This document shows positions 36,912-44,607 of a DNA stretch of 64,000 nt, one piece after another. Position 1 is the first letter of the stretch. Each line of letters begins with the position of its first letter. The stretch lies in the NCBI RefSeq assembly GCF_009914755.1, contig NC_060928.1; one strand, 5' to 3'. The notes beneath the pieces were generated by a model. The model worked only from the letters and a program-made list of their open reading frames with translations. It had not been told where the DNA came from and searched no databases. Source of the DNA: the human T2T-CHM13v2.0 reference genome, Homo sapiens. A program made the translations under genes and the position numbers.

Positions 36912-37083
36912 TAGTAAAGCACATTTGAAAGAATCACACCAGTTTTAATCAATGGAACATACCAGTTTTTAGTCTTAATTTCATTCTTCAAATTTGCCAC
37001 TATTTTTCCAAGCTTTGTGGCGCCAAGGCTTCCAAAACTGATCTGGATTTACTATGGATCTACATGAATTCTGTGAAGCTTAC

Positions 37084-37205
37084 CAGAAATCTTTACCGCA
37101 GTCAATGCAAGAAAGGCATTCACAGTTTCTGCAAACAGACACATGCTTTTCCACTTGTATTTTCTTCACTGATTCACCACATGCATTGCATGTAAAAAAT
37201 ACCAT
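37084..37205 (-). CDS. LYAR: LYAR exon 3 CDS (exon begins 37258): MVFFTCNACGESVKKIQVEKHVSVCRNCECLSCIDCGKDF, LYAR-type C2HC zinc fingers
   Basis: ATG at 37205; acceptor ttttcctTAG at 37260-37259; donor TG|GTAAGC; 122 nt. Confidence 0.97.
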
Positions 37206-39895
37206 TTTTAGGTAAATGGCTAAATATTCTCTATCCAAGACAGGTTTTAAGTCTTGTCCTAAGGAAAAAAAGACAATTATAATTATAAACTGAAACTTCT
37301 CATTTCAATAAATGGCTCATGCCCCTAACTTTTCAACCATAATTTCACATGAAAATAACAGAGTCAAAGTTGATTAGCAATCTACATAAAATTCCACCAT
37401 TCATATAAGTAAAACTAACATTAACAATGAGAATGGCTAACATTTATTGTGTCCTTACCACGTGCCAGGCACTATTCTAGAGGCTTTACATTTATTCACT
37501 TATTCAATCCCCGCAGTAACCCTATGAGGGAAGGACTATTATTGTTCAAAATTTATATGAGGTAACTGAGACACAGAGATTACATAACTTGCCCAAGGAT
37601 ACACGGTTAACAGAACCAGGATTTAAACCTGGCAGATTGGCTCTCAAGATGAAGAGCTTTGAGGGTGTTAAATCTTACTTTCCATAATACCTTAAACTCT
37701 CTCTCTGTATATGAAACTTATAGAAGGCATTGCAATTTAGGTGTACACTACAAACTATTTCAGGTCCTCAAATATACTAAGAACACAGCAAGAGGAAAAC
37801 TGAGTGAAGTTTAGAAAGTGAAGAAGAGGCAATTCTATGGGCACAATTTCTATGGCACTAAAAGCATTCATATCAATATTACTATATATCTACAAAGGTT
37901 AAAATGAGGACATGCGCCTCAGCTGTAATGGACAGGGGCCTTCTTCATGTGGCAGCTTGTCAGACAAGTCAGAAAGAAACGGAACCAAGTCCAGGTGTCC
38001 CAACTGCTGGGTGCTGAATTACTGGAGTTCACAAACCCAGGTGTCCCGAGCACTGCCCCAAAAAGAAGTATGTCTGCACACGCACATAAACATCATTGTA
38101 AAATTTCACAGAAATGCTACCGTGCTCAGGAAAACACAAATTCGTCTAGAAGTGTTAGAGAAGTCACAGTAATTTTCCATACTTACATAATTTTTAATCA
38201 CTAGATTTTAAAACAGCATTGTTGTTTTACATTATAAGTTTTACAGCAAAAATACTGAGAACTGTTTAACCCAGAGCTTTCTTCCTCATTAGGAAAATAA
38301 AGGTGAGGGTCAAGTAAACCGATGCAATTTACTTCAGGGTAGGACTTCATCCAACAAGCTTTCAGTACAAATGATCTACCCTTGGTTTGCAGAGAATTCC
38401 CATGCATGAAATCACCGTTGCTCCTCCACCAGCATGTTTTGGATCACTGCCAGTGAGGCCACACCCAAGCAACGACCAAGGTTATTCATGTCCATTCAGC
38501 CTTGAATGGAAATGTACATCCTGGCTGCATCTCCAGGGTTCACAAAGGTCCAGCTGGTCTCTTGTGGAGGCCTCTTGCCCTGTGGGACACTATCAGACAT
38601 CAGCTCAGCTTCTACGCTACATACAAACCACAGACCCCTGATTCCGCGGTCCCAGGCCCCGCTCCTCAGCTCACTATCAGTGTATGTTAGTAAACGGACA
38701 GCATGTGGTCAGCTACAACCTAGCACCAAATCCTCAGGAAGGAAAACATGACTACCCTCGATGTGCTGCAGCAACTGTCATCTTCTCATCTGCTTACTGT
38801 AAAGATGTGTGATATTGTCAAGCTCCTGGGAGCTGGAATCACGTTTCCCACAACCCAGCTCCCTCAAAGCTTACCATTCTAAAAAAAGGCAGAGGGATGA
38901 TCAACATGTCAGGCAACAAGAGCAGCTATCCTGCCTGACAAGGGAGAACAAAGGCTGGAATAAGAGCCAACATCACATTCTCAAAGAGCATGGAGGTGCA
39001 CTTTGGTGTAAGAGCAGGAATAACTTATTAGTCACCAAGAAATAGATTGTCATCACAGGCACAAGGTGAAAGCAGCCGTGATATGCCAAATTATCTGCTG
39101 AAAAACGTTAAAGCACTTTTCTAATAAGATACAACAACAAAAAACAGTCTCTGAAACTTAGATACGGCTTAGAGCTTGCCAACCTCTGTTGCTGAGGACA
39201 ATTCTATTTCTGGATGGAGTGGGAGATGGGAGGAAGAAAGGTTTCGACAAGGCTTAAGAGTGAATTGAGAGATTCCTGTCCCAGCAGGAATTAAAGGCCT
39301 AGGAAGGAAGCTGGAAACAAAATATATTGACTGAAAGAAGCAGTGAAAGCAGTGATGTTGACAAAAAGATACTCAAGAGTAACTGTGCCAAACATTCTAT
39401 CTCTCTGGAGATCGGCTACACACTACAGTGTAATTAAATATCAATTCAGAAGGTGATTAGAATCTGGTTACATGTCCAGCTAAAAAATAACTCTCACATC
39501 ATTTTCATTTGGTCTTTACTTGTTTAAGGCCAAATGGGTGGATTGCACAGGAAGTCAGAACTGTCTCTTCCTGCCTTCCTCCGGATTTTTACACTTGCCA
39601 TGAAATGGGAACAGCTCTGTGTCCACTTGCTTGGCTAATGAGCTAATGTCTGTAAGGAGCTTACCTCTCCTTTATTCAGAGCCTGGAGGACAGTCCAGCA
39701 CCTTGATTACACCTCAAACCCAACCTAGCCCCAGGCGAAAATACCTGTAATTTATGCCATAAACACTTGCTTGGGCTTCAAAGAAAAGCTCAAAACCATC
39801 AGAAGCTTCAAAGTCAGCCTAACTGCACAGCAGACAGGGTGTCCCAGGTCTTAGTGCAGGCTTAATATTCGTAAGCGTAAATGCTACAAACTTAC

Positions 39896-39949
39896 AAAAA
39901 GCCGTCAGGTGGAAATTCAGTCCCTCTAATGGAAGACAGCAAACATTGC
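39896..39949 (-). other. LYAR: Tandem duplicate of the LYAR 54-nt non-coding exon ('2b')
   Basis: Same acceptor and donor as 2a at an 86-bp period; usage not demonstrable from sequence. Confidence 0.55.
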
Positions 39950-39981
39950 CTAAAACAAAAATGTAAATACTACAAACTTAC

Positions 39982-40035
39982 AAAAAGCCGTCATGTAGAA
40001 ATTCAGTCACTCCAATGGAAGACAGCAAACATTGC
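39982..40035 (-). other. LYAR: LYAR 54-nt non-coding exon 2 (upstream copy, '2a')
   Basis: Acceptor ttttgttttAG|GCAATG, donor TTT|GTAAGT, between exon 1 and the ATG exon. Confidence 0.8.
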
Positions 40036-40109
40036 CTAAAACAAAAAAGTAAAACGGTATTGTTCAAATTCCACAAGACTAGATAAGCATGAAGGAAATT
40101 TAATTAAAC

Positions 40110-40413
<304 letters not shown>

Positions 40414-41893
40414 TTAATTAAATTTTAAATGATGTTTTGGCAAGTTTGGATCATTTATGCTTCTGAAATTATGAAAGCTTAAAACTGCATTAAGATTTTG
40501 AGGACACCCAGTCTGCCGGGCTCAGATGTGACAGATTTCAACATCTAGCCCTAAGTGTAAAAAGACAGCAGTTTTTTCATGGGGCTGGATCTAAATAGAG
40601 TCCTCTTTTCCTTCCCTGGCTCCCCAACTCCCTCTGCCCAATGTCCAGTCCCAGCGCAGCCAGAGAGATTCTACATGCTTTCCTTCTGGCCACATGCGCA
40701 TGTTAAAAGAGAAAGGCAGGCAGAAGGCAGTGTTCTTGGACTGGTTGAGAGCATACTTCGGTTCTTGCTCAGTCACTTTAACTCAATTCGGCAGACATTT
40801 CCTGAATGCTGACACTATCCTATCCACCCAGATACACCTGGGGCCCTCACGCAGGTCCTCTGCGTGTGCTCCTGGCTGCGTCTTCGTCTGTCTGTATGGT
40901 CAGTTTACTGAGCTCTCATCACATGCCATACCCATGAAAAAGATGACGGGGTCTGCACCATAGAACACATGATCATTAGCTCTCTACAAAGCCGTGTCCC
41001 ATTTATGAACACAACTGCCCCCAATACCACTAAGACTGCTATGATCATACTACCTCCATCTGGAGAGAAAACCTAAGGCTCAGGAGGGTAAGTGAACTGC
41101 CCGAAGTCACAGTAAGTGGCAGAGGTGGCCTGAAAGACCAGGCAGCAAGCCCAGGCTCCCACCCTGCCTCCATCTTGACCTGCCATGTCCTAGCCGTTTG
41201 CTTGGTGGTTACTCAGCACCTGGGACCTTGAGGTCCTCATCCAAAGAGAAAAAAAATTAAGGTCTCTATAAGATGACTTTCCATGTATAAATATTAGAAC
41301 CCTAAGTCTTAATTATAAAACCTCTGTGCAGTGGGCAAGGAGACCACCCATGTCACAGGAGAGGCTGTCAGGGTCTGGACAGCAAAGCTAGCTGAGGGGC
41401 AGCAGCCAGTGGTCACTAAGGGGCTGGGAACTTGTTAGTCTTCTCTTAACAAGATGGTTGCCAGCTTTTGTTGGACAGGGCCCTGACTCAGGTGTAGAGG
41501 ATCTGAGCTGGAGCCTACATCTGCTAATGTCAAAAAAGTCATTAAAAACTAAATGACCTCAAAGCACCTTAACTTCCCAGAATCTGTTTATCTGTAAAAT
41601 GGATCTAATACCTAACTCAAAGCATTGGGTGGAAAGTTAAATAAGACACCAGATATGAAAGCTTCATCCCTGCCCAATTGTAGAAAGGTTTCTCTGTGAC
41701 CTACTAATTTGCACATCAATGCTATTATACCCAGCCCCCTCCTAAACCCATGCTCCTTTAAATATGACCATCAACCCACCCATTTATGTTCATAAATTCA
41801 CTCCAACCTTCTCTGGCTCCTCACCCCATGGCTGCCTACTTTACCAAGTTCCCTGATAACATGCCCTTAGGTTTGGTTCTGAGATTGGAATGA

Positions 41894-42250
<357 letters not shown>

Positions 42251-43242
42251 TGACTATTCTTAAAATATTCTTGCATGCACATGCAGACACTGACCTACAC
42301 ATCATTACCACCACTACCACTCAAACAGCCCACCTGAGGGGCCTAGCTGGCAACCCCAGGATATCCCCCACTGAACACTGTGACCCTGAGCATGCCACTG
42401 CCTCTATAAACTTCAAGTTATCTCATCTGTGAAACAAGAAGTCAGGCCAACTTGACAAGACTCAAGCCCCTTCCACGGGTAGCATTCTGAGAAACCATGG
42501 GTATGGTGCAAGAGAAGGACAGACAAACATACTCTGTCCACCATCCTGCCTAAACCTTTGTGTATGAGGCTGACAAGGGTTACAATGGGTGACATTCACA
42601 AGGAGAGAATCTCTCCCTTGTTCCTTGCAAAAGCCCTGGGAAGTAGGTGCACCTATCTCCACTAAACAGATGAGCAAACTGAGGCACAGAAGCCATTTCT
42701 CTCTGCCTCCTACCCCACCCACGGCATCACCAGCACTGTTTTAAACACCATCCCTTCACTCGAGTAACTACCATGTGTCAGGCACTATGCTAGACCCTGG
42801 GAGCCTCGGGCACAGTGTGAGTAAGTCCCAAGTGGGCCCTCTCTGCTAGAAATCAGGGTTGCAAATACAGACCCCACCTCATCCTCCTCCCTCTCTCCTC
42901 AGAGGTAGGTGCTTCAGAGAATCCTAACATTCATGGAGCACCCAAGCCCTCTCATAGGAGGTTAACACATTTCTACTCATGTAATCCTCATCACAGTTCT
43001 CCGAGTTAGATTCTATATGTTATGACAGATGAGGAAAGTGAGGCGCAAAGAGGTTAAAAAACTTACACCAGGTCATCCCACATCCAGGTAGTGGCAACCC
43101 AGATTCACACGCAGTAGTTATTCTGATCCTAAGTATGTGCTCTGGACCGCTACATCCTAAGGCCTCCTCTTTAGGGACTGATCTCCCAAGGCTCAGAGAA
43201 GAGCCCTGTCTCCAACATGCAGCAAGCCTGAAGCCCAGTCGG

Positions 43243-43334
43243 GCGGTGACCAATCGTCCTGGTTTGGCCAGGCCCGAGGGAGTTCCCAGGACGCCGGACC
43301 TTAAGTTTTAAAACTAAAACGAGTTGGTCACCCT
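43243..43334. mobile_element. Short hAT MITE (MER81-like)
   Basis: Inverted termini GGTGACCAA ... TTGGTCACC. Confidence 0.6.
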
Positions 43335-43499
43335 AAGTCCAGGACTCCTGCCACTTCCCCAGAGCAGGAGTGAGATCTGAATGGAACTCCTTCCTCCATG
43401 CGTAACCCAGAGGGGCTGACGGTGGAAATCCCGTCCCTCCCCTACTCACTCTCTGAGCCCCAGCCTCCCAGGTCGGACCTCTGGGCCACCACCCCTCAC

Positions 43500-43620
43500 C
43501 TCTCAGCCAGCGCCCGCCAACGGTTTCAACCGGCCGCGGGGAGCACGTGGACTCGCCGCCGCCAGCCCAGCGCCGCAGCTACCTGCCTCTCAGGCTTCGC
43601 GGTGCAGAATTCGCTTCTGA
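43500..43620 (-). other. LYAR: LYAR exon 1 (non-coding; TSS approximate)
   Basis: Donor GAG|GTGAGG (GT at 43499-43498) inside the CpG island; TSS cannot be fixed from sequence. Confidence 0.7.
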
Positions 43621-43714
43621 ACCACCCAGCGCGCCTGCGCACCGCGGCCACGCCCCCCCCAGTGGAAGTGACGCCAACGGAAGCAGGAAGGCGGTTCCGG
43701 CAAGCCAAGGGGGC

Positions 43715-43816
43715 GTTGTCGTGATGATTCCGCGGCCAGCGGATCGCTGCGAGTGGCCTTGAAGGCAGCTGCTGCAGGTGAAGAGTAGGCGGCGGGGCAG
43801 AGAGCGGCCTCCGAGG
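43715..43816 (+). other. ZBTB49: ZBTB49 exon 1 (non-coding; TSS approximate)
   Basis: Donor AGG|GTAAGG (GT at 43817-43818). Confidence 0.75.
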
Positions 43817-44607
43817 GTAAGGTGGCCGGCCTTGCGAAGGCGTGCGGGGCTGGCGCTGGTGGGAATGGCCCGGAAGGGAAGGGAGGCCGGGCGCCCGAAG
43901 GTGGCCCAGAAGGGCATGGACCCACCGCTCCTTCCCGTCTCTGGGCACTCGAGGATACCCGGGGGGTTGGCGGCTCCTGCGAGAGTCAGCGAGCATTTGC
44001 TCTGTGCCGGGCATCACAGGGGACGCGGACTGAGACCCAGACGGCCAGGTTCCGGGCCTGGGAGCCGGGCCTTCTCCCTGGTGCAGCTTCCTCGGCCTGG
44101 AAACCCCACCCGCGCCCTCTCATCTCCAGGCTTTGCCCGCTGGAAGCCAGCCCGGCCCGCCTCCGCTACGCGCTGCCCATCTCTCGGCTTCTGTTTCCTT
44201 CCACGCTGTAGTTGAGAGTAGCGCTTAAGACGACAGAGCCCACAGCCTAGCTCAGTTTCATTACGGTGTGGCCTCTTTGTGCCTCAGCCCCGCATCTGTA
44301 AAGCGAATGTCATAGCGGCACCTGCGTCCCTGGAACCTTGTCGTATTTCATGAGTTGGTGCATGTAAATCGCTTAGACTAGTGGCTGCCACTTAGTAAGT
44401 ACTCAATAAACGTTAGCTCTTCTCAGCCCTTAAAACAGGGTCTGGCACACAGTGGTGGTCACTAGGTGTTTGTTGCTTAAATGAATGAATGAAAGTTGAG
44501 TGGAGGATGCACAGAGTATTGTGAGAAACCTTCACTCCCAAGGTGTGTGTATATGGGTGATAAGGTTTCACTCTGAAAGTGAGCAGTGTTGGGCCTGGAA
44601 TAGAAGG

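What the first reader, a model, noticed from the sequence alone, without database searches (positions are those of the whole stretch)
39877..40052. Tandem duplication of a whole LYAR 5'UTR exon creates a probable mutually exclusive pair
Seen: the 86-bp unit contains acceptor, 54-nt exon and GTAAGT donor, and both copies keep intact splice sites despite 6 substitutions. The spacer is 32 nt (GTAAGTTTGTAGTATTTACATTTTTGTTTTAG). Established: introns this short are below the spliceable minimum, a known steric cause of mutually exclusive splicing. Inference: LYAR leaders can use 2a, 2b, neither, or a fused 140-nt exon. Short reads could be mis-assigned between the 93%-identical copies and hide this.
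Basis: partly seen in the sequence, partly recalled or inferred. Interest (0 to 1): 0.7.

Follow-up and report, generated by a model that had tools for sequence, protein, structure and literature searches.

The report
Duplicated LYAR leader exon, use unproven
An 86-base piece of the human LYAR gene holding a complete non-coding exon with its splice signals has been copied head to tail, so a near-identical spare exon sits 32 bases behind the used one, but nothing available here shows that the spare is ever used.

Summary
It is an 86-nt tandem duplication, 2.1 copies, with 6 differences in 86 nt (93% identity), at 39877-40053 on the LYAR sense (-) strand. Each copy carries a branch-point-like TTTAC, a pyrimidine tract, AG, a 54-nt exon and a GTAAGT donor. 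The spacer is exactly 32 nt. The unit is bounded by a 5-nt TTTAC microhomology, occurs nowhere else in the T2T genome, and is tens of millions of years old by copy divergence.

The steric argument holds. The distance from the 2a donor to the only full-consensus branch point of 2b is 17 nt, against a published productive minimum of about 46 nt.

"Probable mutually exclusive pair" is not shown:
- None of the 4 RefSeq transcripts contains 2b or a fused exon.
- No paper or supplement I could read reports it.
- Intact splice sites in both copies are expected by chance about half the time (P = 0.52).

Sequence asymmetries all favour 2a. Copy 2b has a weaker pyrimidine tract, its branch point sits within reach of the 2a donor, its donor lies in a -14.5 kcal/mol hairpin, and it has gained UAG and AGGGA motifs.

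Best reading: 2b is a shadow or pseudo-exon, at most a minor alternative leader. It is a further example of a known kind, of modest interest.

The parts
39968..40053 (-). Upstream copy of the 86-nt unit. In the sense direction it holds TTTAC, a pyrimidine tract, AG, exon 2a, GTAAGT and 8 more nt.
   Evidence: blastn self-match 40053-39963
39882..39967 (-). Downstream copy of the 86-nt unit, with 6 differences from the upstream copy.
   Evidence: 93.4% over 91 nt, E = 3.8e-34
39877..39881 (-). Trailing TTTAC. The same 5 nt begin both copies, which is the microhomology at the duplication junction.
   Evidence: similarity in register ends right after TTTAC downstream and right before it upstream.
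39982..40035 (-). Exon 2a, the annotated LYAR non-coding exon 2 (54 nt). It carries two uATGs.
   Evidence: Hub annotation NM_017816.3
39950..39981 (-). The 32-nt spacer. It is at once the 2a donor (GTAAGT) and the branch point, pyrimidine tract and AG of 2b. The branch-point candidate A is at 39964, position -15.
39896..39949 (-). Exon-like copy 2b (54 nt), in none of the 4 RefSeq transcripts. It has one uATG and has gained UAG and AGGGA relative to 2a.
   Evidence: hub annotation table
39859..39903 (-). Predicted hairpin that pairs the 2b donor GUAAGU (39895-39890) with GCUUAC (39876-39871). The partner lies outside the duplicated unit.
   Evidence: -14.5 kcal/mol, z = -2.29, 5 of 200 shuffles fold as well. 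The equal window at the 2a donor gives -7.1 kcal/mol, z = 0.12.
40036..40053 (-). Acceptor region of 2a: branch-point candidate A at 40050 (position -15), pyrimidine tract, AG at 40037-40036.

Best explanation
An old slippage-type tandem duplication of 86 bp, between two TTTAC pentamers, copied LYAR's non-coding exon 2 together with its branch site, pyrimidine tract, acceptor and donor.

The upstream copy (2a) kept the native upstream intron and is the exon that is used. The downstream copy (2b) kept the native downstream intron, but its acceptor now begins 32 nt after the 2a donor.

When U1 sits on the 2a donor, the branch site and tract of 2b 17-30 nt away cannot be engaged. The 32-nt spacer also cannot be spliced out. 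A transcript can therefore carry 2a, or 2b, or neither, or one fused 140-nt exon, but never 2a and 2b as two separate exons. The constraint itself follows from the sequence and from published distance limits.

I infer that in practice 2a wins almost always and 2b is a shadow or pseudo-exon inside intron 2, used at most as a minor alternative leader. If 2b were used, the leader would be the same length, with one short uORF instead of two, and the protein would be unchanged.
For: Duplication and anatomy:
- The donor 9-mers are identical. By a recalled position matrix they are the weakest among the 9 LYAR donors (4.3 bits, ranks 162-163 of 1377 GT sites in the gene span). Exon 2 is therefore a weakly defined exon.

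Asymmetries favouring 2a:
- Acceptor score is 6.8 for 2a against 4.1 for 2b, rank 16 against rank 60 of 1707 AG sites. A T-to-A change at -13 interrupts the 2b tract.
- For 2b, the only full yUnAy branch point within 60 nt is at -15, 17 nt from the 2a donor. All further candidates lie inside exon 2a. For 2a, two further full-consensus branch points (-49, -55) lie in normal intron.
- The 2b donor lies in a hairpin better than chance (-14.5 kcal/mol, z = -2.29). The 2a donor does not.
- 2b gained UAG and AGGGA at exon positions 23 and 27. These are recalled hnRNP A1 and hnRNP H/F silencer-type motifs.

Annotation and distance limits:
- None of the 4 RefSeq transcripts contains 2b or the fused exon (hub table).
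- Distance limits come from PMC11291888 (abstract), PMC4463651 (abstract) and PMC5740500 (passage).

uORF content is.
Against: - No expression data of any kind could be consulted, so 'minor or silent' rests on sequence and on absence from one annotation.
- The two donors are identical over the 9-mer and beyond. By recalled in-vitro work on duplicated 5' splice sites, the downstream site is favoured when both are occupied. That would predict the 140-nt fused exon or 2b, not 2a.
- 2b keeps the native downstream flank that the ancestral single exon had, hairpin included, so that hairpin did not prevent use before the duplication.
- The scoring matrices are recalled approximations. MaxEnt-type scores were not available.
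- The Freddie paper validated by RT-PCR an unspecified novel LYAR junction in LNCaP cells, and it mentions 'intrasequence homology' as one reason for primers that detect only the novel junction (PMC9881145, section 28). That junction could be this one.
- Ivanov and Pervouchine report that some unannotated duplicated exons are expressed in a tissue-specific manner (PMC9013439, section 6).
Confidence: 0.6

Rival explanations
1. One reading: a genuine, regulated mutually exclusive pair. Copy 2b replaces 2a in some tissues or states. That gives a leader of the same length with one uORF instead of two, and so a different translational setting for LYAR.
For: - Both copies have complete signals and identical donors.
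- The steric block makes co-inclusion as two separate exons impossible.
- 2b lacks the second uATG and has a shorter first uORF, 6 codons against 9.
- Unannotated duplicated UTR exons with RNA-seq support are reported as a class (PMC9013439).
- An unspecified novel LYAR junction was validated by RT-PCR (PMC9881145).
Against: - None of the 4 RefSeq transcripts has 2b.
- No mention was found in four full-text searches with LYAR among the terms.
- Preservation of the splice sites is what neutrality predicts (P = 0.52), and exon and flank differ equally: 4 of 54 against 2 of 32 positions, Fisher P = 1.0.
- All asymmetries favour 2a.
- The uORF difference is small. The lost uATG has a poor context, with T at -3.
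Confidence: 0.2
2. The main alternative product is not 2b alone but the fused 140-nt exon: the 2a acceptor paired with the 2b donor, with the spacer retained. That makes this an alternative 5' splice-site event created by the duplication.
For: - The donors are identical, including 12 intronic bases.
- The 2a acceptor is the stronger of the two.
- 140 nt is an ordinary exon size.
- By the recalled rule for duplicated donors, the downstream one is preferred when both are occupied.
- This product would carry three uORFs in a 312-nt leader.
Against: - It is not in any of the 4 RefSeq transcripts.
- The 2b donor is in a stable local hairpin.
- The silencer-like motifs of 2b lie just upstream of that donor.
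Confidence: 0.12
3. 2b is never or rarely in mRNA but acts as a decoy. Its acceptor and donor engage splicing factors non-productively, which lowers 2a inclusion or slows removal of intron 2.
For: - Decoy exons that promote intron retention are described (PMC6097662 and PMC7373989, abstracts as listed in the search).
- 2b has full signals within 32-118 nt of the 2a donor.
Against: - The published decoys lie deep in introns larger than 1 kb (PMC7373989 abstract), not 32 nt from the donor.
- There is no evidence here that LYAR intron 2 is retained.
- No constraint on 2b is detectable.
Confidence: 0.08

Closest known systems
Mutually exclusive exons enforced by steric hindrance, where the donor is too close to the branch point. 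The classic case, recalled, is alpha-tropomyosin exons 2/3. OGDH exons 4a/4b are enforced by branch points near the 5' splice site (PMC7969005, abstract as listed in the search). Hatje et al. count 57 such human clusters (PMC5740500).
   Same: The upstream exon's donor and the downstream exon's branch site are too close for U1 and U2 to assemble across the spacer. Here the distance is 17 nt, and the limit is about 46-50 nt.
   Different: In those cases both exons are proven to be used, both are coding, and most are ancient. Here the exons are non-coding, the entire intron (not only the donor-to-branch-point stretch) is 32 nt, and use of the second exon is not shown.
Tandem exon duplications, including unannotated copies in UTRs and introns (Ivanov and Pervouchine 2022, PMC9013439; Martinez-Gomez et al. 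2021, PMC8373072, title and abstract as listed in the search only).
   Same: An exon has a homologous copy next to it within the same gene. The copy is unannotated and outside repeat families. The authors report 4,027 such intronic targets in human genes and say duplications are more frequent in UTRs.
   Different: LYAR is not named in that paper's text, and its tables (on Zenodo) could not be read. The unit here is unusually small (86 bp), so the two exons are almost abutting.
Intronic pseudo-exons and decoy exons (PMC6097662, PMC7373989).
   Same: An exon-like element with usable splice signals inside an intron that is not, or only rarely, included.
   Different: Here the element is a near-exact paralogue of the neighbouring real exon and lies 32 nt from its donor. 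No decoy activity was tested.

Membership tests
Tandem exon duplication | Two adjacent homologous exon-length segments in the same gene and orientation, not explained by an interspersed repeat. | tested here: met
   86-nt period at 93% identity. There are only 2 copies in the genome and the region is unique. The nearest masked repeat, an Alu at 40096-40440, lies outside the unit (hub table).
Tandem exon duplication | The copy includes the exon's own splice signals. | tested here: met
   AG and GTAAGT are present in both copies, and the donor 9-mers are identical.
Mutually exclusive exon pair | Each of the two exons is included in some mature transcripts. | not testable with these tools
   2a is annotated (NM_017816.3). 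2b is in none of the 4 RefSeq transcripts. No RNA-seq or long-read data are reachable, and the literature and supplement searches found nothing.
Mutually exclusive exon pair | The two exons are not included together as separate exons, and a mechanism enforces this. | tested here: met
   Met as a sequence constraint only. The spacer is 32 nt and the donor-to-branch-point distance is 17 nt, against a 46-nt productive minimum (PMC11291888). The absence of 2a-2b junctions in RNA was not tested.
Mutually exclusive exon pair | Transcripts with neither exon are rare, so exactly one is chosen. | not testable with these tools
   No expression data. Skipping is not penalised here because the exon is non-coding; the skipped leader simply has no uATG.
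Functionally maintained duplicate (under purifying selection) | Fewer changes at functional positions than expected, or conservation across species. | tested here: not met
   Six differences missing the 9 core columns has P = 0.52. Exon against flank is 4 of 54 against 2 of 32, P = 1.0. The longest identical run has P = 0.30. Cross-species conservation could not be tested because no primate genomes are held.

The most novel reading that the evidence does not exclude
2b is a real alternative leader exon restricted to primates. It is chosen instead of 2a in particular cell types, for example lymphoid, erythroid or germline cells where LYAR is high. The steric block makes the choice strictly one-or-the-other, and the switch removes one of two uORFs and so tunes LYAR translation. 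That would be a young, non-coding, duplication-born mutually exclusive pair caught early in its evolution.
Probability: 0.15. Interest if true: 0.5.

Novelty: new member of a known kind. Interest (0 to 1): 0.3.

Why it matters
If 2b is used, LYAR would give a clean natural example of how a very small duplication instantly creates a sterically enforced either/or exon choice. Because the exon is non-coding, no reading-frame constraint would be involved. It would also be a case where annotation-guided mapping could hide a paralogous exon. LYAR is a nucleolar regulator of ribosome biogenesis and fetal globin expression, so leader variants that alter uORF content could matter for its dosage. If 2b is silent, as I think more likely, the locus is an ordinary neutral duplication. 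Its value is then as a caution: intact-looking splice sites in a young copy do not indicate function.

Tried and rejected
- Fossil mRNAs: I looked for LYAR processed pseudogenes that would record old exon-2 usage. None exist. The 403-nt coding exon gives only the self-match plus 5 short matches of 56-72 nt at 77-84% identity, and the unit has no third copy.
- Older copies in the gene: blastn-short of the unit against the whole window gives nothing beyond the two copies (all other matches 17 nt or shorter, E >= 0.25). The 38-nt, 71% 'third copy' at 40769-40806 from the repeat finder (family D2) is therefore taken as chance.
- Dispersed-repeat origin: rejected, within the limits of that search.
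- Competing RNA structure of the kind that controls some mutually exclusive exons: the 216-nt region folds no better than shuffles (z = 0.13). Rfam finds no family in 37000-44000.
- Opposite strand: the only feature is a 52-aa ORF at 39881-40039 that runs through both copies. It has no support and is regarded as noise.
- Literature: full-text searches for LYAR with 'mutually exclusive', 'MXE', 'uORF', 'alternative splicing'+'exon' and 'UTR'+'isoforms' gave nothing on exon 2.
- Supplements: LYAR is absent from the held supplements of Hatje 2017 (10 files), Abebrese 2017 on short introns (4 files) and Freddie (1 file). The supplements of PMC9013439 are not held.
- PBMC long-read paper: its novel LYAR isoform concerns exon 8, not exon 2. 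Its supplement lists four ENST ids without structures.
- N-terminal extension: I asked whether the second uATG of 2a could extend LYAR. It is in frame, but a stop codon forms across the 2a/exon-3 junction after 4 codons, so this is rejected.
Full report
**1. What is there**

On the minus strand, which is the LYAR sense strand, the sequence between 40053 and 39877 consists of two head-to-tail copies of an 86-nt unit followed by the first 5 nt of a third.
- Tandem Repeats Finder gives 39877-40053, period 86, 2.1 copies, 93% matches, no indels.
- The repeat finder gives the same two copies.
- A comparison in register finds 6 differences in 86 columns, 3 transitions and 3 transversions.

Each copy reads, in order: TTTAC, a T-rich tract, AG, a 54-nt exon, then GTAAGT and eight more bases.
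- The upstream exon (2a, 39982-40035) is exon 2 of NM_017816.3 in the hub's table.
- The downstream one (2b, 39896-39949) is in none of the 4 RefSeq transcripts listed there.
- Between them lie exactly 32 nt (39950-39981). This stretch is at once the donor of 2a and the branch site, tract and AG of 2b.

**2. Is it more than chance, and is it a repeat family?**

- Within the window the second copy scores E = 3.8e-34. Nothing else exceeds 17 nt.
- The first 22 nt of the exon occur twice, against 0 expected in 100 shuffles.
- In the whole T2T genome the unit has only these two matches, and the surrounding 451 nt only match themselves. The tool warns that its counts are lower bounds.
- The nearest masked repeat is a sense-oriented Alu whose A17 tail ends at 40110, outside the unit (hub table).

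This is a local, single-event duplication, not a transposon fragment.

**3. How it arose and when**

Similarity in register stops immediately upstream of the first TTTAC and immediately downstream of the third. The ancestral sequence therefore had TTTAC at both ends of an 86-nt stretch, and the duplication joined them. This is the signature of slippage or microhomology-mediated tandem duplication (inference).

One consequence is that neither copy is 'the original' in context. 2a kept the native upstream intron and 2b kept the native downstream intron.

The Jukes-Cantor distance between the copies is 0.073.
- With recalled primate neutral rates of 1.0-1.2e-9 per site per year, this is about 31-37 million years. 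The Poisson interval runs from about 11 to 85 million years.
- At 0.5e-9 the estimate is about 73 million years.
- Gene conversion would make the duplication look younger than it is.

It is therefore old, not human-specific, and probably shared by apes and Old World monkeys. I could not test this because no primate genome is held.

**4. The steric argument**

- For the 2b acceptor, the only adenosine within 60 nt that fits yUnAy completely is at 39964 (position -15), 17 nt from the 2a donor. All candidates further upstream lie inside exon 2a.
- Zhang et al. give 46 nt as the minimal productive donor-to-branch-point length, with profound abnormalities below 50 nt (PMC11291888, abstract).
- Shimada et al. 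validated human ultra-short introns of 37-65 nt, mostly G-rich and unorthodox (PMC4463651, abstract). The spacer here is shorter and is U-rich.
- Hatje et al. treat a donor-to-branch-point distance under 50 bp as potential steric interference and find it in 57 (9%) of their clusters (PMC5740500, passage).
- LYAR does not occur in the four held supplement files of a survey of human short introns (PMC5435141). This is only a weak negative, because those tables may not use gene names throughout.

I accept that 2a and 2b cannot be joined as separate exons.

**5. Is 2b used?**

This is what the interpretation depends on, and I could not reach any expression data.

Indirect evidence against appreciable use:
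- None of the 4 RefSeq transcripts has 2b or the fused exon.
- Four full-text searches with LYAR among the terms found nothing on exon 2.
- Hatje et al. did not cover it. Their text never mentions UTRs, and LYAR is absent from their 10 held supplement files.

Indirect evidence for possible use:
- Ivanov and Pervouchine show that tandem exon duplications are frequent in UTRs. Among 4,027 unannotated intronic copies, some have read and junction support in GTEx (PMC9013439, abstract and sections 4-6). LYAR is not named in the text, and their tables could not be read.
- The Freddie paper validated by RT-PCR a novel LYAR junction in LNCaP cells without saying where it lies. It lists 'intrasequence homology' among its reasons for primers that detect only the novel junction (PMC9881145, section 28). 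This is a lead, not evidence.

**6. What the sequence predicts**

The donor 9-mers are identical. By a recalled position matrix they are the weakest of the nine LYAR donors (4.3 bits, ranks 162-163 of 1377 GT sites in the gene span). Exon 2 is thus a weakly defined exon of the kind that tends to be alternative.

The asymmetries between the copies all point the same way:
- (a) The 2b acceptor scores 4.1 against 6.8 for 2a, rank 60 against rank 16 of 1707 AG sites. A T-to-A change at -13 accounts for part of this.
- (b) 2a has further full-consensus branch points at -49 and -55 in ordinary intron. 2b has only the one at -15, next to the 2a donor.
- (c) The 2b donor pairs with GCUUAC at 39876-39871, just outside the unit, in a local fold of -14.5 kcal/mol (z = -2.29; 5 of 200 shuffles fold as well). 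The same-sized window at the 2a donor gives -7.1 kcal/mol (z = 0.12).
- (d) The changes at exon positions 23 and 27 give 2b a UAG and an AGGGA. From memory, these resemble hnRNP A1 and hnRNP H/F silencer motifs.
- (e) 2a is transcribed first. Once U1 sits on its donor, the 2b branch region is occluded (inference).

Against this reading:
- The two donors are equal, and recalled in-vitro work on duplicated donors favours the downstream one when both are occupied. That would give the fused 140-nt exon.
- The hairpin flank is the one the ancestral exon already had.

**7. No sign of selection**

- Six random differences miss the nine core splice columns with P = 0.52.
- At most one of six falls in the 28 signal columns with P = 0.36.
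- Exon and flank differ equally (4 of 54 against 2 of 32, P = 1.0).
- The 34-nt identical run is unremarkable (P = 0.30).

**8. What would change if 2b were used**

| Leader form | Length | uATGs and uORFs |
|---|---|---|
| Exon 2 skipped | 172 nt | no uATG |
| 2a included | 226 nt | two uORFs: 9 codons, with G at -3; and 4 codons, with T at -3, whose stop forms across the 2a/exon-3 junction |
| 2b included | 226 nt | one uORF of 6 codons |
| Fused 140-nt exon | 312 nt | three uORFs |

The main ATG has a strong context (A at -3, G at +4). The protein is unchanged in all forms. The functional difference between 2a and 2b is therefore small. The larger contrast is between including and skipping exon 2.

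**9. Other checks**

- The 216-nt region as a whole folds no better than shuffles (z = 0.13).
- There are no Rfam families in 37000-44000.
- There are no LYAR retrocopies that could record past leader structure.
- Nothing credible lies on the opposite strand.
- The short-read mis-assignment concern applies only to junction reads with 22 nt or less (exon-1 side) or 12 nt or less (exon-3 side) inside exon 2. Annotation-guided aligners would resolve such reads in favour of 2a.

**10. Verdict**

The duplication is real, precisely as described, and the 'cannot be spliced to each other' inference is sound. Calling it a probable mutually exclusive pair goes beyond the evidence.

My best reading, at about 0.6, is that 2b is a shadow or pseudo-exon, at most a minor alternative leader. 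A regulated pair (about 0.2), a fused-exon alternative-donor event (about 0.12) and a decoy role (about 0.08) remain open.

In kind it belongs to the tandem exon duplications in UTRs already described as a class, and the steric mechanism is classical. It is a new member of a known kind and of modest interest. A junction count in public RNA-seq would settle it within an hour.

Noticed in passing
window 39982-40035 and 37206-37258 (- strand): Every upstream ATG of the LYAR 5'UTR comes from exon 2. A leader that skips exon 2 has none. The second uATG of 2a is in frame with the main ATG but is stopped after 4 codons by a TGA formed across the 2a/exon-3 junction.
   Followed up: yes
window 39859-39903 (- strand): The donor of copy 2b is predicted to pair with GCUUAC at 39876-39871, outside the duplicated unit (-14.5 kcal/mol, z = -2.29). 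The ancestral single exon must have had this same flank.
   Followed up: partly
window 40096-40440 (- strand sense): A sense-oriented Alu with a 17-nt A tail ends at 40110, 74 nt upstream of the 2a acceptor. It is not part of the duplication (family D3; hub repeat list).
   Followed up: no
literature, PMC9881145 section 28: The Freddie long-read paper validated by RT-PCR a novel LYAR splice junction in LNCaP cells. Its position is given neither in the text nor in the one held supplement. It could be unrelated, or it could be this exon.
   Followed up: partly
literature, PMC13252915: A PBMC single-cell long-read study reports a novel LYAR transcript (BambuTx88) as the most highly expressed LYAR isoform, differing at exon 8. 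It is scored non-coding, with a 64-aa peptide. It is unrelated to exon 2.
   Followed up: partly
window 43618 / 43715: By the hub's table, LYAR (-) and ZBTB49 (+) start 96 bp apart, head to head, which is a bidirectional promoter arrangement. An alternative LYAR exon at 43450-43485 ends in a GTGAGT donor at 43449.
   Followed up: no
whole genome (G000): LYAR has no processed pseudogene in the T2T assembly. The 403-nt coding exon matches only itself plus 5 short matches of 56-72 nt at 77-84% identity, on contigs C12, C24 (three) and C3.
   Followed up: partly
window 39664, 36168, 42333 and others (- strand): Several GT sites inside LYAR introns score as high as real donors by the recalled matrix, for example 10.6 bits at 39664, 232 nt downstream of 2b. 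No paired acceptor was examined.
   Followed up: no
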